Shown here piece by piece: positions 3,655 to 29,775 of a DNA stretch of 64,000 nucleotides (position 1 is its first letter; the number at the start of each line of letters is the position of its first letter). The position numbers were made by a program, and so were the translations under genes. The notes below the pieces were generated by a model. It was not told the origin of the DNA, did not search any database, and was given only the letters and a program-made list of their open reading frames with translations. The stretch is from Terriglobia bacterium (lineage in GTDB: Bacteria > Acidobacteriota > Terriglobia > 20CM-2-55-15): contig CBDAOY010000007.1 in assembly GCA_965198225.1 (NCBI GenBank), positions 288,001 to 352,000 on the forward strand, in the 5' to 3' direction.

Positions 3655-5668
3655 CCCGACTTCCGCGGTTCGGCACGATTTTCATCTAATTTGGCCCATT
3701 TGGAGCACGAATCGCGTTTGTTTTCTGTGCCTTGACCTCCTGGGTGGGCGTGTAGTGCCGACCTACCCCCTTGATTAGTTTTTCGGATATGCCGACGATG
3801 CGTGCATGTTCGTGCGCTGCAAGAAGCGATTCAAGGACGGCAAGGAGCACCGCTACTGGAGTGTCGTCGAGAGCACCCGGGTCGGTGGCGGCCGTGTGGT
3901 CCAGCGCCAGCTTCTCTATCTCGGCGAGATCAACGACAGCCAGCGCGCCGAGTGGTGCCGCTCGATCGAGGTTCTCAGCGGCGGCGCGGCGCTGCAGCAG
4001 ATGGCGCTGTTTCCCGAGGACCGGCCCGCGCCGGTGTTGGATTGCGATGTCGTGCAGATCCAGCTCGACAAACTGGAACTGCGCGATCCGCGCCAGTGGG
4101 GCGCCTGCTGGCTGGCGCTGGCGTTGTGGGACCGTCTCGGGCTGGACCGTTTCTGGGGCCCGCGGCTGCCGCCCAGCCGCAAGGGCACCCGATGGCTCGA
4201 TATCCTCAAGGTGCAGGTCTGTTATCACCTGATCGATCCCGGCAGCGACTGGCGGCTGCACCGGCACTGGTATGAACACAGCGCGCTACGTGACCTGCTG
4301 GGCAGTGACCGCGTGATCTCCGACGACAAGCTCTACCGCTGTCTCGACCGGTTGCTCGACCACAAGCGCGAGTTCTTCTCGTTCCTCAAGGCGCGCTGGA
4401 GCACCCTGTTTGAGGCCCGGTTCGATGTTCTGCTCTACGATCTGACCAGCACCTATTTCGAGTCGGACCCGCCCTTGGCGGGCAAACGCCAGTTCGGCTA
4501 CAGCCGCGACAAGCGTCCCGACTGCGTCCAGGTGGTGATCGCGCTGATCATCACGCCCGACGGTTTCCCGCTGGCCTATGAGGTGATGCCGGGCAACACG
4601 GCCGACAACACCACGCTGGCCGCCTTCATCGACCGCATTGAGGCGCAATACGGTCGTTCCGACCGCATCTGGATCATGGATCGCGGCATTCCCACCGAGG
4701 AGACCCTGGCCGAGATGCGCGCCAGTGCCTCGGGCCTGCGCTATCTGGTTGGCACACCCAAAGGTCGGCTGACCCGTCTGGAGTCGTCCTTCCTCGATCT
4801 GCCCTGGCAGCAGGTTCGCCAGTCCGTTGACGTCAAGCTGCTGTCACGAGACGGCGAACTCTATGTGCTGGTCCGTAGCGAAAAACGGATCTCGAAGGAA
4901 CGCAGCATGCGGCGGCGACGGCTGAAGAAGCTGTGGAAACGCCTGCATGACCTGCAGCGACAATCCCTCAGCCGGGATGCGTTGCTGATCAAGCTGGGCG
5001 CCGCAAAGAAGGAGGCCGGACGCGCCTGGTATCTGGTCCGTATCGAGGTCCCAGAAAGCAATGGGGCACTGGCCCACAACGGCTTTGCCTTCACGCTCCG
5101 GCGCGACAAGCTCCGGGCCGCCTACCGGCGCGAAGGCCGCTACCTGCTGCGCTCCAACATGACCAGCGGTGACCCGGCACAGTTGTGGAGCCACTACATG
5201 CGATTGACCGAAATCGAGCAGGCGTTCAAGGAACTCAAGCACGACCTCGCGATCCGGCCGATCTTCCATCAGCACGACCACCGCATCGAAGCCCATATCT
5301 TCCTTGCCTTCATCGCCTGGTGCCTGCAGGTCACCCTGAAATCCCTCATCCGCCCCCACGCCCCGGGGCTGACACCCCGCGCAATCCTCGACACATTCTC
5401 GACCATACAGATGGTCGATGTTCATGTGCCGACCACCGACGGACGCCACCTCGTCCTGCCGCGCTACACCCAACCCAACAGGGACCATCTCTTGCTGCTG
5501 CATCATCTCGCCATGACGTTGCCGCAACAGCCGACACCGCGCATCGCCATCTGAGCGCCATGCCACGGCCCCGATCGCCGACAGCCTTGTAGTGCCGACC
5601 TTCGGGACCTCGATCTAATTAACTCAACAACTTAGGTCTACCAAACCTGCCGAACCGCGGAAGTCGGG
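3655..5668 (+). mobile_element. IS1634-family insertion sequence
   Basis: TIR CCCGACTTCCGCGGTTCGGCA / TGCCGAACCGCGGAAGTCGGG; CTAA on both flanks; sub-terminal repeat TGTAGTGCCGACCT at ~3751 and ~5588. Confidence 0.9.
3806..5554 (+). CDS. IS1634-family DDE transposase
   Basis: YDLTSTYFE, GYSRDKRPD, IMDRG and IEQAFKELK motifs; 582 aa, intact. Confidence 0.92.
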   Translation: MFVRCKKRFKDGKEHRYWSVVESTRVGGGRVVQRQLLYLGEINDSQRAEWCRSIEVLSGGAALQQMALFPEDRPAPVLDCDVVQIQLDKLELRDPRQWGACWLALALWDRLGLDRFWGPRLPPSRKGTRWLDILKVQVCYHLIDPGSDWRLHRHWYEHSALRDLLGSDRVISDDKLYRCLDRLLDHKREFFSFLKARWSTLFEARFDVLLYDLTSTYFESDPPLAGKRQFGYSRDKRPDCVQVVIALIITPDGFPLAYEVMPGNTADNTTLAAFIDRIEAQYGRSDRIWIMDRGIPTEETLAEMRASASGLRYLVGTPKGRLTRLESSFLDLPWQQVRQSVDVKLLSRDGELYVLVRSEKRISKERSMRRRRLKKLWKRLHDLQRQSLSRDALLIKLGAAKKEAGRAWYLVRIEVPESNGALAHNGFAFTLRRDKLRAAYRREGRYLLRSNMTSGDPAQLWSHYMRLTEIEQAFKELKHDLAIRPIFHQHDHRIEAHIFLAFIAWCLQVTLKSLIRPHAPGLTPRAILDTFSTIQMVDVHVPTTDGRHLVLPRYTQPNRDHLLLLHHLAMTLPQQPTPRIAI

Positions 5669-18911: not shown

Positions 18912-18950
18912 TTTCCGCAGGCGCGGGGAAACGCTTTCACGATAATCGGG

Positions 18951-18974
18951 TGTAGGTGCGCTCTATGAGCGCAC
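18951..18974. repeat. GTAG-type REP palindrome
   Basis: TGTAGGTGCGCTCTATGAGCGCAC. Confidence 0.8.
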
Positions 18975-19357: not shown

Positions 19358-20094
19358 GACTGTCCTCCTTCTGGATTTCCCTCCGATTTTTCCGGTGCGT
19401 ATCCCTGACTAACATGGGGCCCGGTAGGAGCAGAAGACAAAAGAGGACTTTTCTTTTCCCGTTCTTCACAATTTGGGGGACCTCCGAGCATTTGCAGACC
19501 TGCTTCCTCTGGGTTTGCTTTTTCACCGTTTGTTCCAGGGATCGTCAAATGGTCCGGCCCATGCGCGGTGTGCAGTTGTCATGTGCGCCGTTCGCGTGTC
19601 CCAGACAACGCTTCGGTCATTCGGATGCCGGGTTCCCCTATCAAACACAGCGTCTTTTATTGCTTATGCGGCGTCCGCTCATCGAAAACCGCTGTACACG
19701 AGGAATGGACGAGCAAAACGATAAAAAACAAAGGAGAGTGCACTCGTCTTTTCATCTCATCGATTTCTACTTTCAAAGAATCGGTTGCACGGCTGAGAAA
19801 AGCGGTGGGCAGCTTCAGAATTTGCGAAGTGACTTTCAAAGTTCGAGCATGACCTTCAAGATCCGCTTCACGACATTCCGGAATCGCCGCTATCGGGGAC
19901 CGTTTGGCCGATAAGTAAAACAAGCGGGGTTCTGCTGTGCAGGGGGTGGCAAGTCGCACGGCGGAACTGTCGCCGTTGGACTGTTATGTTGAGGTGCAGG
20001 AGGCAGAAGACTGGACTCAGACGAAGAATCGCGCCGCCAAGAAGAATCGCACGGGCCGAAGCACAAGAATCCCGCGAGGGCTTTTGAGCGGTCG

Positions 20095-20300
20095 TCAGAA
20101 CCAGTCCGGTTGAGTGGGATGCATGGAGGCGGCCGGGGCAATGGGTGGCGCACGCGACGGTAGACCGAGGCAGTCCAGGATTTTCTGTGTCGCCTCGGGA
20201 GGATGAATTGCTGCGAGGATTCGCATGCGGCTCAGGCATCGGGGGCATTCCAGGACATCCAAGGACCAGACGCGTTTCATCAGTTCCGCCCAGGAAAGTT
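20095..20300 (-). pseudogene. IS91-family transposase C-terminal remnant
   Basis: SWAELMKRVWSLDVLECPRCLSRMRILAAI...KILDCLGLPSRAPPIAPA matches the C-terminal tail I recognise from IS91-like transposases. Confidence 0.75.
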
Positions 20301-20837
20301 CCGCCTCCCTCCCGTGCTCCCCCCATCGTGCCCGCGTCCATGACGAAGGAGAACTGGAATGGGCCTGAGCTCACCGTTGGAATGATCCTGATCCGGAAGG
20401 ATCACTTCACCAAAGGAGATCTGCGCCCGAACCTCGGTTACCTTGTCTTCCTCCTCGGTCGTCACGTCTTCCTGCCCCGCGGCCAGCCTGCATTAAACCG
20501 CATAGCGGAATTCTTCGGCAGGTCCGCGGCTGCTTTGGGCTGTGAAGTTCACCCAGCGGGCGGCGCCACCACCTCGCGAACCGGTTAAATTCTCATCAAC
20601 TCATCCCTCATAGTGGGGCGTGATGACAAAAGGGCTTCTTGTTTTTCCTATGCTCAGCCTATGCTGGACGACGTGTTCGGACTCGCGCGAAAGCTGATCG
20701 ACCAGCACTGAGAATCCGAACGACTCATCACCGATGCGCGGACAGCTTACTCCCCGGGCTTCCAGTCGCCACTGAGAAATTGCTATAGTGCTCGGAACCA
20801 ACTCTGTGGACATCCCATACCTGTAGGAGCAGCATCG

Positions 20838-21440
20838 GTGGCCCAGTTCGAGCACGCTTGTTTCATCAGCTACAAACATCCTCCTCCAGCGCTGGCGTCG
20901 GTCAAACACAGTTGGCTGGAATTCATCGAGGCGTTCGAAAGACGGCTACAGTCGTTTCTGACGGTCAACTTGCCCGTCTACAGGGATGAACAGCTCGACG
21001 ACGAACCCGGTGCCCCCTACCCCACCGAGCTGTCTACGAGGATGTGCAAGAGCGTTTGTATGGTTGCCTTTCTGGTCCCGCAATACCTGGAGAGCAGCTG
21101 GTGCGTCGATGAATGGAAAGCGATGGAAAAGCTGGAGGTCCACAGACTTGGAAACGACAAGGGACTCATCCTTCCGATCGTGATGCATGGTCAGAAGGAG
21201 AGCTTCGAGCAGTTCGTCGGAGAACGCCATGTCGCCGACTTTTCACATATCGTCGCGCCAAAGCAGCAGCTGAAAACAGTCGGCAACAGCAAGCGCATCA
21301 AGAAGATGGCGGAACGGATTAGCCGGTTCAGTAGCAGTCTGGGGGGACCGAGTGTCGATTGCGGAACATTCACCATTACGGAAGGAACCGAGCGCGTGAT
21401 CCCTTCGCCTGACGCCGATCCCGATCCGCTGGCCCAGTAA
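20838..21440 (+). CDS. Stand-alone TIR-domain protein
   Basis: CFISYKH, YLESSWCVDEW (Glu at catalytic position), ILPIV; AGGAG RBS; TAATG overlap with next gene. Confidence 0.85.
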   Translation: MAQFEHACFISYKHPPPALASVKHSWLEFIEAFERRLQSFLTVNLPVYRDEQLDDEPGAPYPTELSTRMCKSVCMVAFLVPQYLESSWCVDEWKAMEKLEVHRLGNDKGLILPIVMHGQKESFEQFVGERHVADFSHIVAPKQQLKTVGNSKRIKKMAERISRFSSSLGGPSVDCGTFTITEGTERVIPSPDADPDPLAQ

Positions 21441-23083
21441 TGCCCAACAAGTTCGGAAAGATCATCACATTCTACTCCTATAAGGGTGGCACGGGCCGCT
21501 CGATGGTGTTGGCAAACGTCGCCTATCTGTTGGCCAAATCCGAACATGTCTCCAAGGGCGTCCTCGTTATCGACTGGGACCTGGAAGCACCGGGGCTTCA
21601 AAGTTTCTTCTACAACCGCTTTCAAAAACAGTTCGGATCGAGCACACGCCCAAGTTACGCCGCGGAGCTGAACGGTGCTCAAGGCCTGATCGACTTCCTG
21701 ACCGACGTCAAGACCCACTACCGCAAAAGCCATCCCCTATCTGACGATGGGAAACTGGAGGCTCTTCCAGAAAGCACGGCCGATCAGGCGCTGACCTCGC
21801 GAATCTTCGAAGAAGCACTGGAAAAACACCCTTTGAAGAAATACCGGTTGGATCTGGACGAACTGCCGATGTTGTCGGTGATGAAGGCGGGCAGCCAGCA
21901 GACGGATCGCGGTGACGAAGACACCTATTGGACCAAGGTGAAGGGTTTCGACTGGAGCGAATTCTACCGTCAGTACGGGAGCTTCTTTACCCACTTCCGC
22001 GAGCACTTGATGAAGACCTTCGACTTCGTTTTGATCGATTCTCGTACCGGGCTGACCGACATCGGCGGCATCTGCACGCGGGTGATGCCTGAGACGCTCG
22101 TCGCGGTCTTTGCGCCGAATCATCAGAACATCGCGGGCGTCGAACGCGTTGTCCGAAAGTCGGTCGGCTACCGCCGGCGTTCGCGGGATCCGCGTCCGCT
22201 GAGCGCTTTTCCCTTGGCCTCCCGAATCGATGCGTCGGCCTCGCGACTTCGAAAGATCTGGTGGCGTGGTGGGGAATTGGGTGGCGAGCAGATCACCGGA
22301 TACCAGGCGACGTTCGAAAAGCTGTTTAAAGAGCTCTACGAGTTGGAGGAATGCGACCTTGGACCGTACTTCGACGCGACCCAGGTTCCACACGACAGCG
22401 ATTTCGCATATGGCGAATCGGTGGCCGCCATGGAGCAGGGCACCGAGGACCGTTTCTCGATTGGCCACGCCTGCGAGGAGCTGATGGAACGCCTGGTCCA
22501 GACTCCTTTTCCGTGGGAGCCACTGGGAACCTCCGAAGCCCGCGGGGGAGTGTACGTTAGCTATCGCCGCAAGGATTCCGCACATCAGGCTCGGCTCTTG
22601 CATGACGCGCTGGTTGAGCGAGTCGGTGCGGGATGGGTCTACATGGACGTGGACCACATGGCTATCGGAACGAGTTTCAGGGAGACAATGGCCGCGATGC
22701 TGGATCGAGCCGCGCTCATGCTGGTGGTGATCGGTCCGGAGTGGCTCAGCACAGGCTCATCAGAAACGCCAACGATCGCCGACCCAGGCGATTTCGTCCA
22801 CCACGAGATCGCGGAGGCTCTCAGACGCGACATGCGGATCGTTCCCTTGCTGGTCGACAACGCCAAGATGCCCCGCCCCGAAGTGCTGCCCCCGGACCTG
22901 TTCGGCCTGATGCAATTCAACGCTTTCGAGATCACCAACGATCAGTGGGACGCCGACTTGGCCGGGCTTTTCCAAGCCCTCGACGACATCTTGCCAAGCG
23001 CACAGATTCTGACGCGATGGGAGCTTTTTGTCCGGATACTGAAACGATTCTGGAAGTCTCTCCGCGAGGCTCTGTCAGGTTAA
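21440..23083 (+). CDS. MinD/ParA-like (KGGxGR) P-loop ATPase fused to C-terminal TIR domain
   Basis: FYSYKGGTGRSMVLANVA, VLVIDWDLEAPGL, FVLIDSRTG; C-terminal VYVSYRRKDS...DFVHHEIAEAL...IVPLLV. Confidence 0.85.
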   Translation: MPNKFGKIITFYSYKGGTGRSMVLANVAYLLAKSEHVSKGVLVIDWDLEAPGLQSFFYNRFQKQFGSSTRPSYAAELNGAQGLIDFLTDVKTHYRKSHPLSDDGKLEALPESTADQALTSRIFEEALEKHPLKKYRLDLDELPMLSVMKAGSQQTDRGDEDTYWTKVKGFDWSEFYRQYGSFFTHFREHLMKTFDFVLIDSRTGLTDIGGICTRVMPETLVAVFAPNHQNIAGVERVVRKSVGYRRRSRDPRPLSAFPLASRIDASASRLRKIWWRGGELGGEQITGYQATFEKLFKELYELEECDLGPYFDATQVPHDSDFAYGESVAAMEQGTEDRFSIGHACEELMERLVQTPFPWEPLGTSEARGGVYVSYRRKDSAHQARLLHDALVERVGAGWVYMDVDHMAIGTSFRETMAAMLDRAALMLVVIGPEWLSTGSSETPTIADPGDFVHHEIAEALRRDMRIVPLLVDNAKMPRPEVLPPDLFGLMQFNAFEITNDQWDADLAGLFQALDDILPSAQILTRWELFVRILKRFWKSLREALSG

Positions 23084-23153
23084 CTGGCCGCATGGCACAA
23101 TTCATTTGCGGACCGAAATGCGTCCTCGATCTCCGGGCCTGCGTATCGTCGTC

Positions 23154-26000
23154 ATGAGCAAAGTATTTCTCTCATACTCCCGAGAAGACAAGGACTTCGC
23201 ACGCCGGTTGGCGGGCGAGCTGACCGAACAGGGTCAGGACGTATGGATCGATCTCGACGATATTCCTCCAAGCGCAGAATGGAAGTCAGAGATACGCTCG
23301 GCGATAGAGGCTGCAGACAACTGTGGTTTTGTACTTAGTCCCGGATTTGTCGCATCCGAAATCTGTGCTGAGGAGCTTGCGCACGCCATCGAGCATAACA
23401 AGCGCATCGTTCCTTTGCTGTATCGAGACGTGGAGCCGAGCAGTTTGGACAAAGCGCTCGCGTCACTGAACTGGATTGTCTGCCGGAACGAAGAAGGCCT
23501 ATCCGGCGTGGTTACCCAGGTGATGGCGGCGCTGACGACAGACCTTGAATGGGTGCGAGCACATACTCGTCTGCTCGTGCGGGCGCTTGAGTGGGAAAGA
23601 GCCGATCACAACCGCAGCTATCTTCTCCGGGGTGACGATCTCAGCACGGCGGAACAGTCGGTACAAAATGCCAGCGCCAAGGAGCCACAACCAAGCGAGT
23701 CGCAGTCGAGGTATCTGAACGCCAGCCGAAGAGCTGTTACCCGACGTTTGCGCAACACAATTGCTTCGCTCGCCGTTGCGCTGGTAGTCACTGCAGCGTT
23801 GGGCGTGACGGCGTGGATTCAGCGAGAGGCGAAGGAAGAACAGCGCCTAGTTGCTGTAGCTCGACAGGCCGCCGCGCGCGCTGAACTGCTGCTCGACCAG
23901 GAACCTCGACTGCTCCAATACTCGCTGTTTTTGGCGGCGGTTTCCCTGCGGGATTCCCCGACCCTTGAAGGCGAGCGCGCATTACGTAGATCCGTAGACT
24001 TGCAGCCGAAAGCAGTGATGAAGCTCCCTCTCGAGGGCGACGCGGCAGTTGTGGTCTTTGAGTCCGACAATCGATTCTTGGTGATTGGTGGTGAACTTGG
24101 CATTCGAGTATTCGACGTATCCCTTGACACCGAGGTGCTGTCGCTCTGGGATCAATACCCAGTTCACTTGGTGGCAGTGAGCCCGGATGGACGATGGGTA
24201 GGAGCGGCGAGCGGTAGCGAAGCTCGGATCTTCGCATTCGACACGGGCAGGGTTGTGGCGAGGCTGCCGCATCGGAACACTGTGCGTGCCTTGGTCTTCA
24301 GCCCCGACAGCGCTTCGCTAGCAACAGCGGCCGAAGGCAATGAGGCTCGAGTTTGGGTGTCTGAAACTGGGACTTTCTCCTACCAGTTAGACGGGGCGGT
24401 ATCGGCGACCCTTGCTTTCAGCCCCGACGGAAGATGGATCGCGGGAGGCTCGATTGCCGGCGTTGAGGTCTGGAAGGCAGCGACTGGCGAACTAGTGACC
24501 GAGATCCAAACAGCGGGTGGAGTGGGATCTCTAGCGTTTGGTCCGGAGGGAGTACAGCTTGCGATAGGAAGTGCGACTTCGTCCTCAGGGTCCAATTATT
24601 ACGCAGCCATAATGAATGTGGAAACGGGCGATGTCTCAACACGTGTGCGACACAAGAATCCGGTTCGCACCGTGGCCTTCAGTCCCGATGGCGACTACGT
24701 CGCAAGCGGGAGTGATGGTTTCAACCTCCGTGTCTGGGACCCGAGAACAGGCGCCGTTGTCGCCGAAATGCGACACGGAGACGAGATAAGAAAGGTGGCC
24801 TTCAACTCCAGTGGGAGCCGGGTTGTCACTCTGAGTCTGGATGGAACGGCGCGAGTATGGCAGGCAGCGACGGGCGACGAGGTGGCTCGGGTGGGGCACG
24901 AAAGAGGCGTGGCGGATGTGGACCTTAGTCCGGATGGTCGGTGGCTGGCCACCGCAAGTGGGAACGAGGTCGTTGTGTGGGAAGCGGCGGCAAGGGGGGA
25001 GTCAACACGCATGGAAACTGGGGACGTGCGCGTGGCTGCGCTCGCCTTCGGCGATGACAGCCGGACGCTGATCGCGATAACGGCCGGCGGTTCTGCCCCG
25101 CTCGCTAGAACCTACAAGATCGATACCGCCGAGGAGGTAGGGCAGACTGCACTCAGCAACTACGCCCAGTGGTTCGCAATTAGCTCAAACTCAAGGTGGG
25201 TCGCGTCAACTGCGGGTAGCAGCGTTGATGTCTTTGACGTTGTCGAGGGGGAATGGGCAGCACAGTTCTATCACCAGGGCATGGCGTTGTATCTGACGTT
25301 CAGTGCTGATGGTCGATGGCTGGCAATCGGCGGGACGAACGACGGGGTTGTCAGGATTTGGGACGTGTCCGACGGATTTGATCGCGGGCGAACGCCAGTG
25401 GTACGCATGCCGCATCAGAACTGGGTGAACGCAGTGGCATTCAGCCATGACGGTAGATTGGTGGCAACGGGGGACTATCTCAAGGCCCGAGTTTGGGGAG
25501 TTGAGACGGGCGATCAAGTTGCCGAGTTCAGTCATCCATCCGCCGTGGACGCGTTGGCTCTGAGCCGCGACAACCGGTTGTTAGCATCAGCCAGCAGCGG
25601 AACCGTTTATCTTTGGGATGTCGCGGCAGAAGAAGAAGTTGCGCGAATAGTACACGGAGGGCCCGTCCGGGCCTTGGCATTCAGCGAAGAGGGTCACCTT
25701 GCGACCGCGGGCGGACCAGTTGCGCGAATCTGGGACATTGGAAGCGGGCTAGAGTTAAACCGCGTGGTGCACGAGGGCCGGATCGATAGTTTGGCCTTTA
25801 GTCGCGATGGCCGATGGCTCGCGACGGGGTCTCTCGACGGGACGGCCCGGGTGTGGGCTCGCACGCTGGAAAGAAACGATCTTATCCTGGAAGCGTGTAA
25901 TCGAATTGTCCACGAGCTCAACGCGGATACACTGCGAAGATACTTTGGCGAGATGCCGGTTTCGACGCCATGCCAGGAGTTCCGAGGCGACGACGGGTGA
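23154..26000 (+). CDS. TIR - transmembrane helix - WD40 repeat protein
   Basis: KVFLSYSREDK...SEICAEELAHA TIR; TM segment IASLAVALVVTAALGVTAWI; roughly 14 FSPDG/WD repeats; no Walker A seen. Confidence 0.88.
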   Translation: MSKVFLSYSREDKDFARRLAGELTEQGQDVWIDLDDIPPSAEWKSEIRSAIEAADNCGFVLSPGFVASEICAEELAHAIEHNKRIVPLLYRDVEPSSLDKALASLNWIVCRNEEGLSGVVTQVMAALTTDLEWVRAHTRLLVRALEWERADHNRSYLLRGDDLSTAEQSVQNASAKEPQPSESQSRYLNASRRAVTRRLRNTIASLAVALVVTAALGVTAWIQREAKEEQRLVAVARQAAARAELLLDQEPRLLQYSLFLAAVSLRDSPTLEGERALRRSVDLQPKAVMKLPLEGDAAVVVFESDNRFLVIGGELGIRVFDVSLDTEVLSLWDQYPVHLVAVSPDGRWVGAASGSEARIFAFDTGRVVARLPHRNTVRALVFSPDSASLATAAEGNEARVWVSETGTFSYQLDGAVSATLAFSPDGRWIAGGSIAGVEVWKAATGELVTEIQTAGGVGSLAFGPEGVQLAIGSATSSSGSNYYAAIMNVETGDVSTRVRHKNPVRTVAFSPDGDYVASGSDGFNLRVWDPRTGAVVAEMRHGDEIRKVAFNSSGSRVVTLSLDGTARVWQAATGDEVARVGHERGVADVDLSPDGRWLATASGNEVVVWEAAARGESTRMETGDVRVAALAFGDDSRTLIAITAGGSAPLARTYKIDTAEEVGQTALSNYAQWFAISSNSRWVASTAGSSVDVFDVVEGEWAAQFYHQGMALYLTFSADGRWLAIGGTNDGVVRIWDVSDGFDRGRTPVVRMPHQNWVNAVAFSHDGRLVATGDYLKARVWGVETGDQVAEFSHPSAVDALALSRDNRLLASASSGTVYLWDVAAEEEVARIVHGGPVRALAFSEEGHLATAGGPVARIWDIGSGLELNRVVHEGRIDSLAFSRDGRWLATGSLDGTARVWARTLERNDLILEACNRIVHELNADTLRRYFGEMPVSTPCQEFRGDDG

Positions 26001-26029
26001 CGTGGAGTCAGGGTGCCCGAGGAGCTTGA

Positions 26030-26110
26030 GCGAGAGAACGCCCGCCTGAACCTGGAGAGGTTGGCGACGGAGGCGATGCTGGACAACCCATCTTGAAAGA
26101 GGGTGTTGTC
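26030..26110 (+). pseudogene. IS3-family OrfA fragment
   Basis: Degenerate ELERENARL...EAMLDN motif. Confidence 0.5.
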
Positions 26111-26209
26111 GCAGTATGAAAGGACGCCCCTTATCTGGGGTTTGTTGAGAGAAAACTCTCAACAAACCTGATCAACGTTGGCGCGTTGATCCCAGAAAGG
26201 AGCGTTGTA

Positions 26210-27271
26210 ATGAAACGAGACAAGTATGTGGGGATGGATGTCCACCAGTCAATGACAGTGGTGGCGGTGATGAATGCCGAAGGGAAGATCGTGCTGGAGA
26301 CCATGGTGCCCACGGCAGCGTCGCCGATCCGTGAGTTGATCGAGAGTCTGAGCGGGCGGTTGCATGTGACGCTGGAGGAGGGCACGCAGGCCCAGTGGTT
26401 ACACGAGGTGATTGGCGACCTGGCAAAGGAAATCGTGGTGTGTGATCCCAAACGGAACAAACTCCTAACGGAAGGCTCGAAGGGAGACAAGCCCGATGCG
26501 CGGAAACTGGCGGAGCTTCTACGGGTCGGAATGCTGCGATCGGTATGGCACGGGCACGAGCAGACACGTGGTTTGAAACAGATGGTTCGGGCCTATGAGA
26601 CCTTCACCATCGACACGAAGCGGACAATGCTTCGGATTAAGGCCATCTACCGGGGTCGTGGCATTCGGACGGGGGGATCGGGAGTCTACCAGGCGACACA
26701 GCGCGAGCAGTGGCTGGGACAGATCCCTGAGACGGGAATGCGGCAACGCGCGGCCTGGCTGTATGAACAGTTGGATCAGGTTCGGAAACTACGCAAGCAG
26801 GCCAAGGCTGGCATGCTGGAGGAGAGCCGCCATCACCAGGCCGTCGCTCTGCTGCGAAGCATTCCCCAACTGGGTCCGATCCGAGCGGCTCAGATTGTGG
26901 CCACGGCCGATACGCCACACCGGTTCCGAACCAAGCGGCAGTTCTGGAGCTATAGCGGCCTGGCGGTAGTCACCCACAGCAGCGCGGAATATGAGTTTCA
27001 GGCGGGTCGGGTCGTGCGGCGATCCAAACCAGTGGCCACACGGGGATTGAACCGGAACTGCAACCGGCGCCTGAAATCGGTCTTCGTTTCGGCAGCCACT
27101 GCGGGAGGTAGGAGCGATCCCTGGCGGGAGTATCTGGAGAGTCTCAAAGAGAAAGGTATGCGGCCAGAGATGGCTCGGCTCACTCTGGCGCGGAAGATTG
27201 CAACCGTCGCTCTGACGATTTGGAAGAAAGGAGAAACATTCGATCCTAAGAAACTGAACGCGACACCATAG
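26210..27271 (+). CDS. IS110-family DEDD transposase/recombinase
   Basis: YVGMDVHQ, LEEG, KGDKPDA, SIPQLGPI, WSYSGLAVVTHSS and LARKIA motifs. Confidence 0.92.
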   Translation: MKRDKYVGMDVHQSMTVVAVMNAEGKIVLETMVPTAASPIRELIESLSGRLHVTLEEGTQAQWLHEVIGDLAKEIVVCDPKRNKLLTEGSKGDKPDARKLAELLRVGMLRSVWHGHEQTRGLKQMVRAYETFTIDTKRTMLRIKAIYRGRGIRTGGSGVYQATQREQWLGQIPETGMRQRAAWLYEQLDQVRKLRKQAKAGMLEESRHHQAVALLRSIPQLGPIRAAQIVATADTPHRFRTKRQFWSYSGLAVVTHSSAEYEFQAGRVVRRSKPVATRGLNRNCNRRLKSVFVSAATAGGRSDPWREYLESLKEKGMRPEMARLTLARKIATVALTIWKKGETFDPKKLNATP

Positions 27272-27970: not shown

Positions 27971-28255
27971 GGAGTGCATGGTACTCCCTGGCTGGGACCG
28001 GCTGACACTGCGGCGCGCCGAGCAGGGCCAACGGCCCGGTCCATGCGGACACTCCCAGCTGGCGGAGCTTCTGGAATCTAAGCCTTGCGTTTCGAAACCT
28101 GTTGGGGAGGATTCGGCTTCAGCCGAAGCAAGGCGCATCAGCCGTACGTACAACGTGGCGAGCTCCAATCTCCAGGTCCTCACTCTTCTGGAAGGGGACC
28201 TGGGAGACGGCTCGGAGGATGGGTGTTGCGGTTCGAAGAATGTGCGGTCATAGAC

Positions 28256-29670
28256 CATTCCGTCCAAGATAGGTCCTGAGCCGACCCCCTAGAAAAGTAA
28301 AAAGCCCTCCTCAACCCTTGCCGGGGCATCCGTGTGTGTGTACATGCACCCGGCAATTCCAAAGGAGGGCTCCGCCATGGTAGCTGTCGCGAGCTTGTTC
28401 AATCAATTGTTGCAACACTTCCCCCGAACCGAATTCGAGAGTCTGGTCCAACTGCACCAAGCCGAACGCCATGCCAAGGGGTTTGCCTGCTGGACCCAAT
28501 TCGTATCCATGCTGTTCTGCCAGCTCGCCCATACCGATTCCCTGCGTGAAATCTGCAACGGGCTGAACTGTTGTCTGGGCAAGCTGATTCACCTGGGCAT
28601 TTCACACGGCCCGAAAAAGTCGACTCTGTCCTATGCGAACCGGCACCGGCCGGCGGCCTTGTTCGAACATCTGTTCTGGACCGCCCTGGGACGATTTCGC
28701 CAACAACAACTGTTGGGCCGCCGGTCGCATCGGTTTCGATTCCGAAACAAGTTGCTCACGATGGATTCCACCACGATTGGCCTCTGTCTGAACCTGTTCC
28801 CATGGGCGCGCTTCAAGGCCGATAAAGGCGGCATCAAGGCCCATGTCCTGCTCGACCACGACGACTACATGCCCCGCTTCCTGCGCCTCACCGATGCCAA
28901 AGGCAGCGACGTCCAGATGGCCCACCATATGCCGCTCAATCCCGGTTCCATCGTCGTGGGCGACCGCGCCTATATCGACTTCTCTCTGTTCGAAAATGGA
29001 CGCTCGGCGGCATCTTCTTCGTTGCTCGATCCCACTACAACTTACGCTACCGCGTCTTGGATGACCGTCCGCTTCCTCAGAAGCGCCGCATCCTCTCCGA
29101 TCAACTGATCCGTCTCACCGGCCGGGGCACTCATGGCCGCTGTCGTCAACCCCTACGGCGCATCGTCATCCAACGCCTCGATTATCCTGACGATCCGTTG
29201 GTCTTGCTGACCAACCACTTGACGTTTGGCTCATCCACCATCGCCGCTATCTACAAGGATCGCTGGCAGATCGAGGTCTTCTTCAAAACCCTCAAGCAGA
29301 ACCTGAAAATCAAAACCTTCATCGGAACGACCGAAAATGCGCTCCGCATTCAGATTTGGACAGCCTTGATCGCCCTGCTGTTGTTGAAATGGCTCCACTT
29401 CCTCTCCCGATGGTCCCTCTCCAACCTCGCCTCCATGCTCCGCCTGAACCTTTTTACCTACCGCAATTTGCGCGACTGGCTCGACGATCCCTTTCTCACT
29501 CCACCCCTGGAGCCGCTCCCCGCTCAACTTTCCCTACAACTCCACTGATTTTGGACAGGCTCCATGATTCGAAAAGGCAGACCTCCTCCCGGAAATCCCT
29601 TTTCTGTCTCCATAACCGATGTCCTATCAATCTCCGGTGGGTCAACCCTGTCCTATTTTGGACAGCTGTG
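28256..29670 (+). mobile_element. IS4-family insertion sequence inside a REP
   Basis: CA...TG ends, imperfect IR (GTCCAAGATAGG / CCTATTTTGGAC), 9-bp direct repeat GTCATAGAC at 28247-28255 and 29671-29679. Confidence 0.88.
28377..29548 (+). pseudogene. IS4-family transposase with one frameshift
   Basis: QFVSMLFCQL, MDSTTI, GDRAY and YKDRWQIEVFFK motifs split over two frames; one extra A in GAAAATGG (~28992) restores FEKWTLGG. Confidence 0.85.
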
Positions 29671-29720
29671 GTCATAGACCGCACCTACACCTTCTCGGGC
29701 ACTGTTGCTTACCTGCGAGA

Positions 29721-29745
29721 TGTGCGGTCATAGACCGTACCTACA
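29721..29745. repeat. GTAG-type REP palindrome
   Basis: TGTGCGGTCATAGACCGTACCTACA. Confidence 0.8.
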
Positions 29746-29775
29746 CGAAACGTCCCGTCTTCTATTCCGGTTCCC

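What the first reader, a model, noticed from the sequence alone, without database searches (positions are those of the whole stretch)
20838..26000. Three-gene all-TIR operon (TIR; MinD-like ATPase-TIR; TIR-TM-WD40): candidate undescribed defence/conflict system
Seen: three co-oriented genes, the first two coupled by a TAATG overlap. Each carries a TIR domain that keeps Glu at the catalytic position (WCVDEW, FVHHEI, ICAEEL). The operon is intact while its neighbours are IS91, IS3 and Fic debris, an IS110 and a frameshifted IS4. Known: bacterial TIRs are NAD+-consuming enzymes or signal producers in Thoeris, CBASS, Pycsar and Avs. A TIR gene followed by a KGGxGR ATPase recalls the FxsC/FxsT pair of actinobacterial FxSxx-COOH loci. 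No ThsA, cyclase, STAND NTPase, radical SAM or precursor peptide is visible here. Inference: a receptor - ATP-gated adaptor - effector relay held together by TIR-TIR contacts.
Basis: partly seen in the sequence, partly recalled or inferred. Interest (0 to 1): 0.85.

Follow-up and report, generated by a model that had tools for sequence, protein, structure and literature searches.

The report
TIR-ParA conflict dyad plus TIR receptor

Summary
Three co-oriented intact ORFs (20838-21440, 21440-23083, 23154-26000) each carry a TIR domain with the conserved Glu. Genes 1 and 2 overlap in TAATG.

The interpretation "undescribed system" does not hold for the core. Gene 2 is a ParA/MinD-fold ATPase with Arg replacing the Walker A Lys (NCBIfam KGGVGR domain, above cut-off). 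In 13 of 13 close loci a gene-1-like small TIR lies directly upstream. This is the "TIR-ParA" dyad (FxsC/FxsT-like) of Li, Burroughs and Aravind (bioRxiv, Oct 2026). It is described by computation only, with no experiment.

Differences here:
- The ParA has no fused sensor.
- Its fused TIR is SARM1-like and keeps the catalytic Glu; the preprint calls the fused TIR inactive.
- It ends in a strongly amphipathic helix.

Gene 3 (TIR, one membrane helix, about 14 WD40 blades) belongs to a large family. That family stood alone in 4 of 4 other loci, and it is absent from the 2 orthologous dyad loci with downstream sequence. The three-gene synteny is therefore not conserved.

Against that, close ParA relatives are mostly ParA-TM-sensor fusions, some with WD40. 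A split receptor joined by TIR-TIR contact therefore stays possible, at about 35%.

Verdict: new variant of a known, untested kind.

The parts
20825..20829 (+). AGGAG, likely ribosome-binding site 8 nt before the GTG start of gene 1
   Evidence: read directly from the sequence
20838..21440 (+). Gene 1: small TIR protein (200 aa). It is the constant upstream partner of the ParA gene (the preprint's 'TIR-FC' type). It has Glu 92 in WCVDEW, then a helix at aa 148-167 and a disordered tail ending in a conserved DPxPL-like motif.
   Evidence: Pfam TIR_2 40.8 bits. NCBIfam FxsC_Nterm 29.2 bits, below its cut-off of 130. E92, W88 and C89 are invariant in 15 of 15 rows. Model pLDDT 82.5, with best PDB matches all TIR domains. 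The family has 943 representatives at E<=1e-10.
21440..22525 (+). Gene 2, aa 1-362: ParA/MinD-fold ATPase domain of the preprint's 'ConB2' type. Walker A reads K15-G-G-T-G-R20-S, with Arg in place of the P-loop Lys. It also has D45-W-D47 followed by PG, and Walker B D195...D200.
   Evidence: NCBIfam NF047398 AAA_KGGVGR 128.4 bits, cut-off 90. Fold matches MinD 1hyq (TM 0.70 on the target), ParA, FlhG, Soj and McdA. The motif residues are invariant or nearly so in 16 orthologues. The preprint names Arg-for-Lys and the PG motif as marks of ConB2.
22538..22981 (+). Gene 2, aa 367-514: SARM1-like TIR domain with SYRR at its start and Glu 456 in FVHHEI
   Evidence: Pfam TIR_2 45.7 bits. Best solved relative by sequence is the SARM1 TIR, E 1.6e-9, Glu on Glu. 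Fold TM about 0.8 on SARM1 TIR chains. E456 is invariant in 16 of 16 rows.
23018..23077 (+). Gene 2, aa 527-546: C-terminal amphipathic helix, a candidate membrane-binding tail like that of MinD (inferred)
   Evidence: Predicted helix 526-546. It has the highest hydrophobic moment in the protein, 0.80 over 18 residues. Tails rich in Trp, Phe and Arg occur in 11 orthologues.
23154..26000 (+). Gene 3: TIR - helical module - single membrane helix - about 14 WD40 blades (948 aa from ATG 23154; the frame is open from TTG 23106). It is receptor-like, with the TIR predicted inside the cell and the propellers outside.
   Evidence: Pfam TIR_2 91.6 bits and WD40 207.7 bits. The start agrees with the family consensus. 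Relatives share 45-55% identity over aa 1-240.
23154..23543 (+). Gene 3 TIR domain (aa 1-130), Glu 74 in CAEEL
   Evidence: E74 invariant in 25 of 25 rows
23760..23828 (+). Gene 3 membrane helix (aa 203-225)
   Evidence: Hydrophobic stretch with net charge +5 in the 15 residues before it and +1 after it. The membrane-helix region and the helical cap after it align to the region following the ParA domain of the ParA-TM-WD40 protein P0024.
24051..25928 (+). Gene 3 WD40 repeats, about 14 blades (two propellers, inferred)
   Evidence: Pfam WD40 and many beta-propeller families. Repeat motif positions.

Best explanation
The locus holds two conflict (anti-invader, cell-suicide type) modules side by side, probably transcribed together.

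Module 1 is genes 1 and 2, a TIR-ParA dyad.
- Gene 2 is a ParA/MinD-fold ATPase whose P-loop Lys is Arg, fused to a SARM1-like TIR and ending in an amphipathic helix.
- I infer that it sits on the inner face of the membrane and binds ATP but turns it over slowly.
- I infer that it works as a nucleotide-dependent dimerising or oligomerising switch. When triggered, it brings its own TIR domains and the small TIR of gene 1 together. That assembly builds active NAD+-cleaving sites and drains NAD+, stopping or killing the infected cell.

Module 2 is gene 3, a type II membrane protein with a cytoplasmic TIR and two WD40 propellers outside. It belongs to a large family that elsewhere works without the dyad. 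I take it as a self-contained sensor-effector that shares the island and possibly the transcript.

Shown here by computation: the folds, the motifs, the conserved Glu residues, the strict gene-1/gene-2 pairing, and the lack of conserved pairing with gene 3.

Inferred: ATP switching, membrane binding, NADase activity, the death outcome, and the independence of gene 3.
For: Dyad:
- A gene-1-like ORF lies directly upstream of the ATPase in 13 of 13 loci whose ParA is at least 50% identical and has its N-terminus present, and in one more distant locus.
- The stop-to-start distance is -4 to +33 nt in those 14 loci and -1 in the window.
- This holds whatever follows the ParA domain: TIR, TPR, discoidin, or a long tail with a cytochrome-c-like stretch.
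- NF047398 scores above its cut-off, and the fold is MinD/ParA plus a SARM1-like TIR.
- The Arg-for-Lys and PG marks and the whole dyad match the preprint's ConB2 TIR-ParA systems.
- The Glu is kept in 36 of 46 ParA-fused TIRs in the sample; 8 are gapped and 2 have another residue.

Conflict setting:
- The ATPase family is fused to TIR, peptidase S8, NACHT, SLOG/SLATT, CHASE2, WD40 and TPR.
- The closest orthologous locus carries two SLATT genes and a TPR-S gene downstream.
- The distribution is sparse. The ParA part matched in 7 of 400 other genomes of the phylum sample. In a second phylum sample of 401 genomes it matched only in the centre genome from which that sample was drawn.

Independence of gene 3:
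- Relatives that extend beyond the TIR occur at 4 places in 2 of 400 genomes.
- Those two genomes have no KGGVGR ATPase above cut-off and no gene-1 or gene-2 hit within about 8 kb.
- Neither of the 2 orthologous sensor-less dyad loci with downstream sequence (L042, L044) has a gene-3-like gene.
- The gene 3 family is large and widespread.
Against: - The ParA-TIR of the window has no sensor of its own, while most of its relatives do. Among 111 ParA rows, 70 have a membrane helix after the ParA domain, and 11 of those continue into WD40.
- Its clade (16 rows, SH-aLRT 93) is nested in a well-supported clade of 53 dominated by ParA-TM-sensor proteins.
- The membrane helix, helical cap and WD40 part of gene 3 align to the corresponding part of the ParA-TM-WD40 protein P0024 (26% over 467 columns).
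- Genes 2 and 3 are 70 nt apart on one strand with no terminator-like site between them on that strand.
- All of this fits gene 3 as the sensor supplied in trans.
- My sample of orthologous dyad loci with downstream sequence is only 2.
- The preprint calls the ParA-fused TIR inactive. If that held here, only gene 1 would be the enzyme.
- No experiment exists for any member, so NADase activity, ATP binding and a defence phenotype are all unproven.
- Arg in place of the P-loop Lys led the same group in 2020 to call such MinD/ParA-like domains inactive (passages).
Confidence: 0.55

Rival explanations
1. Three-part relay.
- Gene 3 is the sensor of the dyad.
- A signal at its outer WD40 propellers clusters its cytoplasmic TIR.
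- That TIR docks on the TIR of the membrane-bound ParA-TIR.
- The ParA switch then fires the gene 1 TIR, and possibly all three, to cleave NAD+.
- The covalent ParA-TM-WD40 receptor of the relatives is here cut in two, with a TIR on each side of the cut.
For: - Close ParA relatives are mostly ParA-TM-sensor proteins, 11 of them ParA-TM-WD40.
- The sensor-less ParA-TIR clade is nested among them.
- The membrane helix, cap and WD40 of gene 3 align with P0024 from before the membrane helix onward.
- The genes share a strand with a 70 nt gap and no terminator-like site between them on that strand.
- The tail of the ParA-TIR looks like a membrane-binding helix, which would place it beside a membrane receptor.
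- The orthologous locus L042 also has co-oriented extra genes, including a predicted sensor (TPR-S), so trans partners may vary.
- A Pseudanabaena plasmid has a ParA gene of this clan followed by a separate beta-propeller gene.
- The preprint notes auxiliary TIR-sensor genes beside another ParA system (passage on the APE system).
Against: - No second locus with the three-gene order was found: 0 of 2 orthologous loci.
- No genome in the 400-genome phylum sample had ParA and TIR in one frame besides the window's own.
- Gene-3-like genes occur without the dyad in 4 of 4 loci.
- The WD40 similarity is of the general repeat kind, and the cap motif is common to the whole gene 3 family.
- A near-identical relative has gene 3 frameshifted to 650 aa. 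That may be a sequencing error.
Confidence: 0.35
2. Signal-producing system. The TIR domains make a nucleotide signal (an ADP-ribose isomer or similar) that switches on an effector encoded elsewhere, as in Thoeris, and they do not drain NAD+.
For: - Weak PADLOC and NCBIfam hits of all three TIRs to ThsB-type and Thoeris type III models.
- In the orthologous locus L042 two SLATT membrane-effector genes follow the dyad.
- One family member is fused to SLOG-type and SLATT domains (P0115).
Against: - No ThsA, SLOG, SAVED, SLATT or other signal-receiving effector lies beside the three genes in the window.
- The ThsB hits are far below any family cut-off.
- The closest solved relative of the gene 2 TIR is SARM1, an NAD+ consumer.
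Confidence: 0.07
3. Not a working system: cargo stranded among insertion sequences and on its way to decay, or a signalling set unrelated to conflict.
For: - The patch from 19.0 to 29.7 kb holds an IS110, a split IS4-type gene and a repeated fragment.
- A near-identical relative has gene 3 frameshifted.
Against: - All three frames are open.
- All catalytic and nucleotide-binding marks that are invariant in relatives are kept.
- The 5.9 kb block is carried with 0-2 differences in contigs of four runs, though these may be one strain.
Confidence: 0.03

Closest known systems
TIR-ParA 'apoptosis' systems of the ConB2 ParA clade (Li, Burroughs, Aravind, bioRxiv 10.64898/2026.10.19.760177; sections 25 and 26 read in full, plus passages)
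   Same: - An upstream small TIR with the active-site Glu, directly followed by a ParA gene.
- Arg in place of the Walker A Lys, and PG after the DxD motif.
- An optional TIR fused behind ParA.
- Relatives with STAND, ligand-binding or type II receptor-like sensor parts.
- Predicted NAD+ depletion switched by ParA.
   Different: - The ParA protein here carries no sensor at all.
- Its fused TIR keeps the Glu and the SYRR motif and is SARM1-like, whereas the preprint calls the fused TIR inactive.
- It ends in an amphipathic helix.
- A separate TIR-TM-WD40 gene follows it.
- I could not see the preprint's figures or supplements, which may show such variants.
FxsC / FxsT of actinobacterial FxSxx-COOH peptide loci
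   Same: The pairing is homologous: a TIR gene followed by a KGGxGR ParA-like gene. The preprint maps the dyad onto FxsC/FxsT. FxsC_Nterm gives a weak hit to gene 1.
   Different: - The score is far below the family cut-off (29 against 130 bits).
- Gene 1 has no FxsC C-terminal domain.
- No FxsA or FxsB (radical SAM) genes are present.
- Gene 2 has no STAND or TPR part.
SARM1 TIR domain (NAD+ hydrolase)
   Same: It is the best solved relative of the gene 2 TIR by sequence (E 1.6e-9) and by fold (TM about 0.8). The Glu aligns with residue 642, and the SYRR motif and the aromatic residue four positions before the Glu are kept.
   Different: The rest of the protein differs: ParA in place of ARM-SAM. 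Activity is not tested.
MinD / ParA cell-division and partition ATPases
   Same: The fold, the first (signature) Lys, the DxD motif and Walker B match. The C-terminal amphipathic helix recalls the MinD membrane tail; that likeness is recalled from memory and not tested.
   Different: The P-loop Lys is Arg. About 100 extra residues of helical inserts are present. There is no MinC/MinE or ParB partner. The neighbours are conflict-type genes.
Stand-alone bacterial TIR-TM-WD40 proteins; by architecture, Toll-like receptors
   Same: Gene 3 shares 45-55% identity over its first 240 residues with many proteins of about 900-1000 aa annotated as TIR or WD40 proteins. As in Toll-like receptors, a repeat sensor outside is joined by one membrane helix to a TIR inside.
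   Different: The topology is inverted: N-terminus inside, type II. The repeats are WD40, not LRR. The likeness to Toll-like receptors is one of layout only.
Thoeris (ThsA/ThsB) and PADLOC candidate PDC-M28
   Same: TIR proteins give weak ThsB-model hits. The ATPase hits PDC-M28B (62.8 bits, partial).
   Different: There is no ThsA. No PDC-M28A hit appears for gene 1 or two orthologues even at E<=10.

Membership tests
TIR-ParA system (ConB2 ParA; preprint 10.64898/2026.10.19.760177) | A gene for a TIR with the active-site Glu lies directly upstream of the ParA gene, in conserved order | tested here: met
   TAATG overlap in the window. The same order holds in 13 of 13 close loci plus one distant locus, with gaps of -4 to +33 nt. 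E92 is invariant in 15 of 15 rows.
TIR-ParA system (ConB2 ParA; preprint 10.64898/2026.10.19.760177) | ParA of the ConB2 type: Arg in place of the second Walker A Lys, and a PG motif after the DxD sensor motif | tested here: met
   KGGTGRS and DWDLEAPG are present. NF047398 scores 128.4 bits against a cut-off of 90. The marks are as stated in the preprint.
TIR-ParA system (ConB2 ParA; preprint 10.64898/2026.10.19.760177) | The ParA protein is fused to a sensor part (STAND module, ligand-binding domain, or membrane helix plus extracellular domain) | tested here: not met
   Gene 2 ends after the TIR and a 20-residue helix. It has no membrane helix and no further Pfam domain. The same is true of 14 orthologues.
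TIR-ParA system (ConB2 ParA; preprint 10.64898/2026.10.19.760177) | Where a TIR is fused behind ParA ('TIR-FT'), it has lost the NAD+-cleaving site | tested here: not met
   E456 is invariant in 16 of 16 rows and aligns with the SARM1 Glu. The Glu is kept in 36 of 46 ParA-fused TIRs of the sample. I could not compare with a true FxsT sequence.
TIR-ParA system (ConB2 ParA; preprint 10.64898/2026.10.19.760177) | [quoted passage not shown] | not testable with these tools
FxsC/FxsT of FxSxx-COOH loci | Gene 1 scores as FxsC (NCBIfam NF040588, cut-off 130 bits) | tested here: not met
   29.2 bits, E 8.1e-7, aa 55-115 only.
FxsC/FxsT of FxSxx-COOH loci | Neighbouring FxsA precursor and FxsB radical SAM/SPASM genes | tested here: not met
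   No such family appears among the flank ORFs scanned. A short precursor ORF could be missed.
Thoeris | A ThsB-type TIR together with a ThsA effector (SIR2 or TM with a SLOG-type sensor) | tested here: not met
   Only weak ThsB-model hits were found: E 0.005 for gene 1 and 1.1e-10 for gene 3. The ThcB4 scores are 17.7-41.5 bits against a cut-off of 220. No ThsA-like ORF is present.
PADLOC candidate system PDC-M28 | Both the PDC-M28A and PDC-M28B proteins are present | tested here: not met
   B scores 62.8 bits, a partial match. A gave no hit for gene 1 or for the gene-1 orthologues of L042 and L009 at E<=10. I have no description of PDC-M28A.
MinD/ParA proper | Deviant Walker A KGGxGK[ST] with both lysines | tested here: not met
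   The second Lys is Arg 20, nearly invariant in 16 orthologues. The fold itself matches.
TIR NAD+ hydrolases (SARM1-like) | Catalytic Glu in the conserved position of the TIR fold; measured NAD+ cleavage | tested here: inconclusive
   The Glu position is met for all three proteins by alignment. Enzyme activity cannot be tested here.
Stand-alone TIR-TM-WD40 family (for gene 3) | N-terminal TIR, conserved helical module, one membrane helix, helical cap, WD40 array, about 900-1000 aa | tested here: met
   Relatives share 45-55% identity over aa 1-240. Conserved columns run through the TIR, the helical module and the cap in 25 rows.

The most novel reading that the evidence does not exclude
A split, inverted 'Toll-like' receptor pathway in a bacterium.
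- An outer WD40 double propeller on a type II membrane protein reports through its cytoplasmic TIR.
- By TIR-TIR docking it signals to a membrane-tethered ParA-TIR switch.
- That switch then fires a third TIR.
- All three TIRs keep the catalytic Glu, so adaptor and enzyme roles would be combined.
- It would be a natural case in which a covalent ParA-TM-sensor receptor has been cut in two and re-joined by homotypic TIR contacts.
Probability: 0.3. Interest if true: 0.7.

Novelty: new variant of a known kind. Interest (0 to 1): 0.42.

Why it matters
TIR-ParA systems have so far been predicted only by comparative genomics, and no member has been tested.

This locus is a compact candidate for a first test. 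It has three intact genes in 5.2 kb and no large STAND or repeat fusion on the ATPase. The ParA-fused TIR looks catalytically competent and is the closest bacterial-type relative of SARM1 in the set.

It allows two clean questions:
- Does a ParA-fold ATPase with Arg in its P-loop work as a nucleotide switch for TIR NADases?
- Can a TIR domain serve as the plug that connects a separate membrane sensor to such a switch?

If gene 3 proves independent, the locus is still a useful example of two TIR modules in one transcript. It is also a caution against reading neighbouring TIR genes as one system.

Tried and rejected
1. Complex prediction. I sent gene 1, gene 2 and aa 1-200 of gene 3, each with its own alignment, and gene 3 as the partner. 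The result was 'no answer', score 0.00 in two runs, and the controls were not run. This is neither support nor evidence against binding.

2. RNA evidence for co-transcription. No RNA holder was listed. The runs laid are contigs, so they say nothing on transcripts. They show only that 20203-26135 lies on single contigs in runs X3 and X5, and on two overlapping contigs in X1 and X6, with 0-2 differences. These runs may include the sample the window came from.

3. Composite-transposon idea. A 25-nt inverted repeat at 18949-18973 and 29667-29691 brackets the IS-rich patch. I rejected this reading because the motif is a genome-wide palindromic repeat: 870 matches at up to 5 mismatches in 6.4 Mb. 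The 'joints' arise from the same repeat.

4. More loci.
- A second phylum sample found the ParA part only in the centre genome it was drawn from, 1 of 401.
- The plasmid search with gene 2 gave 8 distant records, none covering at least 80% of the query.
- The plasmid search with gene 1 gave nothing.
- So I could not fetch an FxsT to compare its TIR with that of gene 2.
- IMG/VR gave 7 contigs with ConB2-type ParA genes but no TIR hit. These are other ParA systems, not this one.

5. Naming the flank debris. My own impression that 20095-20280 (minus strand) looks like an IS91 transposase tail is recalled and not tested.

6. PADLOC. No named system was found, only partial PDC-M28B and weak ThsB-type hits. 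DefenseFinder was not available.

7. Literature. 'KGGVGR' and 'PDC-M28' gave nothing relevant. 'TIR-ParA' occurs only in the one preprint. My statement that no experiment is in print rests on these searches and on the listing. Subscription journals are not covered.

Supplements of papers are closed, and figures are not held. The preprint's Fig. 5G and Supplementary Figs S2N, S8B and S9 may show sensor-less ParA-TIR forms or third genes that I could not see.

Full report
WHAT IS THERE

One search lists three open frames on the + strand: 20838-21440 (200 aa), 21440-23083 (547 aa) and 23106-26000. The first two share one base (TAATG), and AGGAG lies 8 nt before the GTG of gene 1. For gene 3, the ATG at 23154 gives an N-terminus that matches the consensus of 24 relatives. 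The gap to gene 2 is therefore 70 nt. No terminator-like site lies on the + strand between genes 2 and 3, but the scan is crude.

DOMAINS

Pfam finds TIR_2 above its cut-off in all three proteins, at 40.8, 45.7 and 91.6 bits. It also finds a long WD40 array in gene 3.

NCBIfam places aa 7-240 of gene 2 in NF047398, 'KGGVGR-motif variant AAA ATPase', at 128.4 bits against a cut-off of 90. It gives gene 1 a weak FxsC_Nterm hit of 29.2 bits against a cut-off of 130. PADLOC gives only a partial PDC-M28B hit for gene 2 and weak ThsB-type hits.

A model of gene 2 (pLDDT 78.5) matches two kinds of solved structure:
- MinD, ParA, FlhG, Soj and McdA with its first 360 residues.
- SARM1 TIR chains with residues 367-514, at a TM of about 0.8.

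A model of gene 1 (pLDDT 82.5) matches only TIR domains.

THE GLU RESIDUES

- Gene 2: phmmer against solved chains puts FVHHEI on the SARM1 stretch DWVHKEI (E 1.6e-9). Counting from the alignment start on the 724-residue chain gives residue 642. A PDB entry is titled E642A. That this is the catalytic residue is established knowledge, which I recall.
- Gene 2 conservation: E456 is invariant in 16 of 16 orthologues.
- Gene 1: WCVDEW aligns with the matching motif of the CRISPR-associated TIR Cat1, and E92 is invariant in 15 of 15 rows.
- Gene 3: E74 is invariant in 25 of 25 rows.

THE ATPASE

The Walker A motif reads K15-G-G-T-G-R20-S. The first, dimer-interface Lys is kept, and the P-loop Lys is Arg. 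D45-W-D47 is followed by PG. The Walker B region is D195-F-V-L-I-D200. All these residues are invariant or nearly so in the orthologues.

The last 20 residues form a predicted helix. It has the highest hydrophobic moment in the protein, 0.80. Orthologues end in similar tails rich in Trp, Phe and Arg. I read this as a membrane-binding helix of the MinD kind. That is an inference.

SYNTENY OF GENES 1 AND 2

Homologues of gene 2 number 2675 at E<=0.001 among the 8000 candidates scored. The ParA part is joined to many different C-terminal parts: TIR, WD40, TPR, discoidin, peptidase S8, CHASE2, FGE-sulfatase, NACHT and SLOG/SLATT.

I fetched 5 genome loci and 15 metagenome loci. tblastn with gene 1 found a relative directly upstream of the ATPase in all 13 loci whose ParA is at least 50% identical and complete at its N-terminus. 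It also found one in a more distant locus, which was fetched twice as L011 and L054. Three loci with an N-terminally incomplete ParA (L047, L010, L053) and two tiny ones (L055, L056) gave no hit and are not counted.

The stop-to-start distance is -4 to +33 nt in the 14 loci. Among the 7 ParA-bearing genomes of the phylum sample, held with only 1.5 kb of flank, 3 had a weak gene-1-like hit upstream and 4 had none. Those four may belong to other ParA systems.

The gene 1 family is large. It has 943 cluster representatives at E<=1e-10, nearly all about 200-220 aa.

THIS DYAD IS ALREADY DESCRIBED

A full-text search for 'FxsC' led to Li, Burroughs and Aravind, bioRxiv 10.64898/2026.10.19.760177, dated 22 Oct 2026. 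I read the outline, passages, and sections 25 and 26 in full.

The preprint defines 'TIR-ParA apoptosis systems' by these features:
- A TIR gene with an NAD+-degrading site lies upstream of a ParA gene of their ConB2 clade.
- ConB2 is marked by Arg in place of the Walker A Lys and by a PG motif after the DxD motif.
- The pair maps onto FxsC/FxsT.
- The ParA protein carries STAND, ligand-binding or type II receptor-like sensor parts.

Their model is a sensor acting on a ParA switch, which triggers an active TIR, which destroys NAD+. No experiment is reported. 'TIR-ParA' occurs in no other paper of the library.

An earlier paper of the same group (eLife 2020, PMC7159879, passages only) called such MinD/ParA-like domains inactive.

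HOW THE WINDOW DIFFERS FROM THAT DESCRIPTION

(a) No sensor in cis. Gene 2 has no membrane helix and no further domain. I built a tree of 111 near-complete ParA domains. I dropped 9 of the 120 listed homologues for an incomplete ParA domain, and used the quick IQ-TREE method.
- The window's protein groups with 14 other ParA-TIR proteins that lack a membrane helix and with one ParA-peptidase (SH-aLRT 93).
- That group lies inside a clade of 53 (SH-aLRT 99) dominated by ParA proteins with a membrane helix and a sensor.
- Of all 111 rows, 70 have a membrane helix after ParA, and 11 of those continue into WD40.

(b) The fused TIR looks active. The Glu is kept in 36 of 46 ParA-fused TIRs of the sample, with 8 gapped and 2 with another residue. 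The SYRR motif at the domain start is also kept. I could not fetch a true FxsT to see whether its TIR is the same kind.

(c) The amphipathic tail described above.

(d) A conserved tail on gene 1. After the TIR comes a helix and then a disordered end with a DPxPL-like motif that is conserved in the close orthologues. This may be a docking peptide for ParA. That is an inference.

IS GENE 3 PART OF IT?

Evidence against:
- tblastn with the gene 3 TIR or its mid part found nothing in the two orthologous sensor-less dyad loci that have downstream sequence.
- L042 instead has two SLATT genes and a TPR-S gene, co-oriented. L044 has a convergent cyclase plus AAA_16 gene.
- Gene 3 belongs to a widespread family. 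147 proteins reached E<=0.001 among those scored, most of them about 900-1000 aa with 45-55% identity over the first 240 residues. Their sources name Chloroflexi, Anaerolineae, cyanobacteria and actinobacteria. There are also variants with CHASE2, dCache or NACHT in place of WD40.
- In the phylum sample, relatives reaching beyond the TIR occur at 4 places in 2 of 400 genomes.
- Neither of those genomes has the KGGVGR ATPase above cut-off, and none of the 4 loci has a gene-1 or gene-2 hit within the roughly 8 kb fetched on each side.

Evidence for:
- The clade of gene 2 has lost the cis sensor that its relatives have.
- WD40 behind a membrane helix is one of the common sensors of those relatives.
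- The stretch of gene 3 from about 40 residues before its membrane helix through the helical cap into the WD40 array aligns with the same part of the ParA-TM-WD40 protein P0024 (26% over 467 columns, E 4e-22 for the pair).
- The tail of gene 2 would put it at the membrane.
- A Pseudanabaena plasmid has a ParA gene of this clan followed by a separate beta-propeller gene. A Sinorhizobium plasmid has a ParA-TIR gene beside four other TIR genes.

I put the relay at about 35% and independence at about 55-60%.

SETTING

- The own genome has one KGGVGR ATPase and 14 TIR_2 matches.
- The three genes lie in an IS-rich patch from 19.0 to 29.7 kb. On one side are a PQQ dehydrogenase and a PD40 protein; on the other are an amidase and a cytochrome c.
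- No other defence gene was found among the flank ORFs scanned.
- The ATPase family is sparse. The ParA part matched in 7 of 400 other genomes of the phylum sample at E<=1e-20. In a second phylum sample of 401 genomes at E<=1e-30 it matched only in the centre genome.

MECHANISM I COMMIT TO

Genes 1 and 2 are a ParA-switched TIR NADase pair acting at the membrane. Gene 3 is a self-contained TIR receptor that shares the island and probably the transcript.

- Shown by computation: the folds, the motifs, the conservation, and the pairing of genes 1 and 2.
- Inferred: ATP-dependent dimerisation, slow hydrolysis because of the Arg, membrane binding, TIR assembly, NAD+ loss, and cell death.
- Not shown: any activity, and any contact between the proteins.

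VERDICT

The finding is a new variant of a kind that is known from computation only. Its value is as a compact test case, and for the open question of whether a TIR domain can couple a separate membrane sensor to a ParA switch.

Noticed in passing
window 18949-18973, 28240-28261, 29664-29691, 29720-29746; whole genome: A 25-nt palindromic repeat (core TCATAGA flanked by a short stem, then CGCACCTACAC) occurs 870 times in the 6.4 Mb genome at up to 5 mismatches. Copies often sit in inverted pairs about 50 nt apart. Two stem variants (GGTC/GACC and GCTC/GAGC) both keep the pairing. It looks like a REP-type element.
   Followed up: partly
window 19910-20295: A fragment of about 380 nt just upstream of gene 1 recurs at 79-84% identity at three other places (C8:1190202, C7:397888, C7:394509). 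Its first 50 nt or so recur at several more. Four of these places lie within 1-8 kb of other TIR_2 matches of the genome (C8:1194730, C7:401326, C4:32771, C6:731298). It may be the end of an insertion sequence that travels with TIR genes. Pfam finds nothing in its ORFs.
   Followed up: partly
window about 25003 (G-run in gene 3); protein P0121: The protein database holds a near-identical relative of gene 3. It has 1 substitution in 629 residues, then shifts frame at a run of G and ends at 650 aa. Five member sequences stand behind that cluster. This may be a real frameshift in a sister strain or a homopolymer sequencing error.
   Followed up: partly
L042:9745-12811: In the closest orthologous dyad locus with flanks, the ParA-TIR gene is followed on the same strand by a DUF4231/SLATT_3 gene, a SLATT_1 gene, and a 675-aa gene with a TPR-S (sensor) domain and an unassigned 440-aa N-terminal part.
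   Followed up: partly
L097-L103 (IMG/VR viral contigs): Seven viral contigs carry ParA genes with the KGGVGR motif and DLEAPG or DLEAPS (26-37% identical to gene 2). My queries detected no TIR gene nearby. ParA genes of this clan therefore also ride on predicted phages or prophages.
   Followed up: no
window 28332-29548 and 26186-27271; also 3806-5554: An IS4-type DDE transposase gene (DUF4372 + DDE_Tnp_1) is split into two overlapping ORFs. An intact IS110-family transposase gene lies directly after gene 3. A further DDE transposase gene lies at 3806-5554.
   Followed up: partly
own genome, 14 places (for example C4:32771-33214 and C7:50128-50559): The genome has 14 TIR_2 matches. Two of them are of the same SARM1-like kind as the gene 2 TIR (30-34% identity) but lie in other proteins of 349 and 390 aa.
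   Followed up: no
proteins P0035, P0040, P0044, P0049, P0051, P0063, P0065, P0068, P0070, P0074, P0075, P0081, P0090: A separate clade of ParA proteins of about 645 aa has hydrophobic segments directly after ParA (two in most of them) and then a TIR that keeps the Glu. It is another way of putting a ParA-TIR at the membrane.
   Followed up: no
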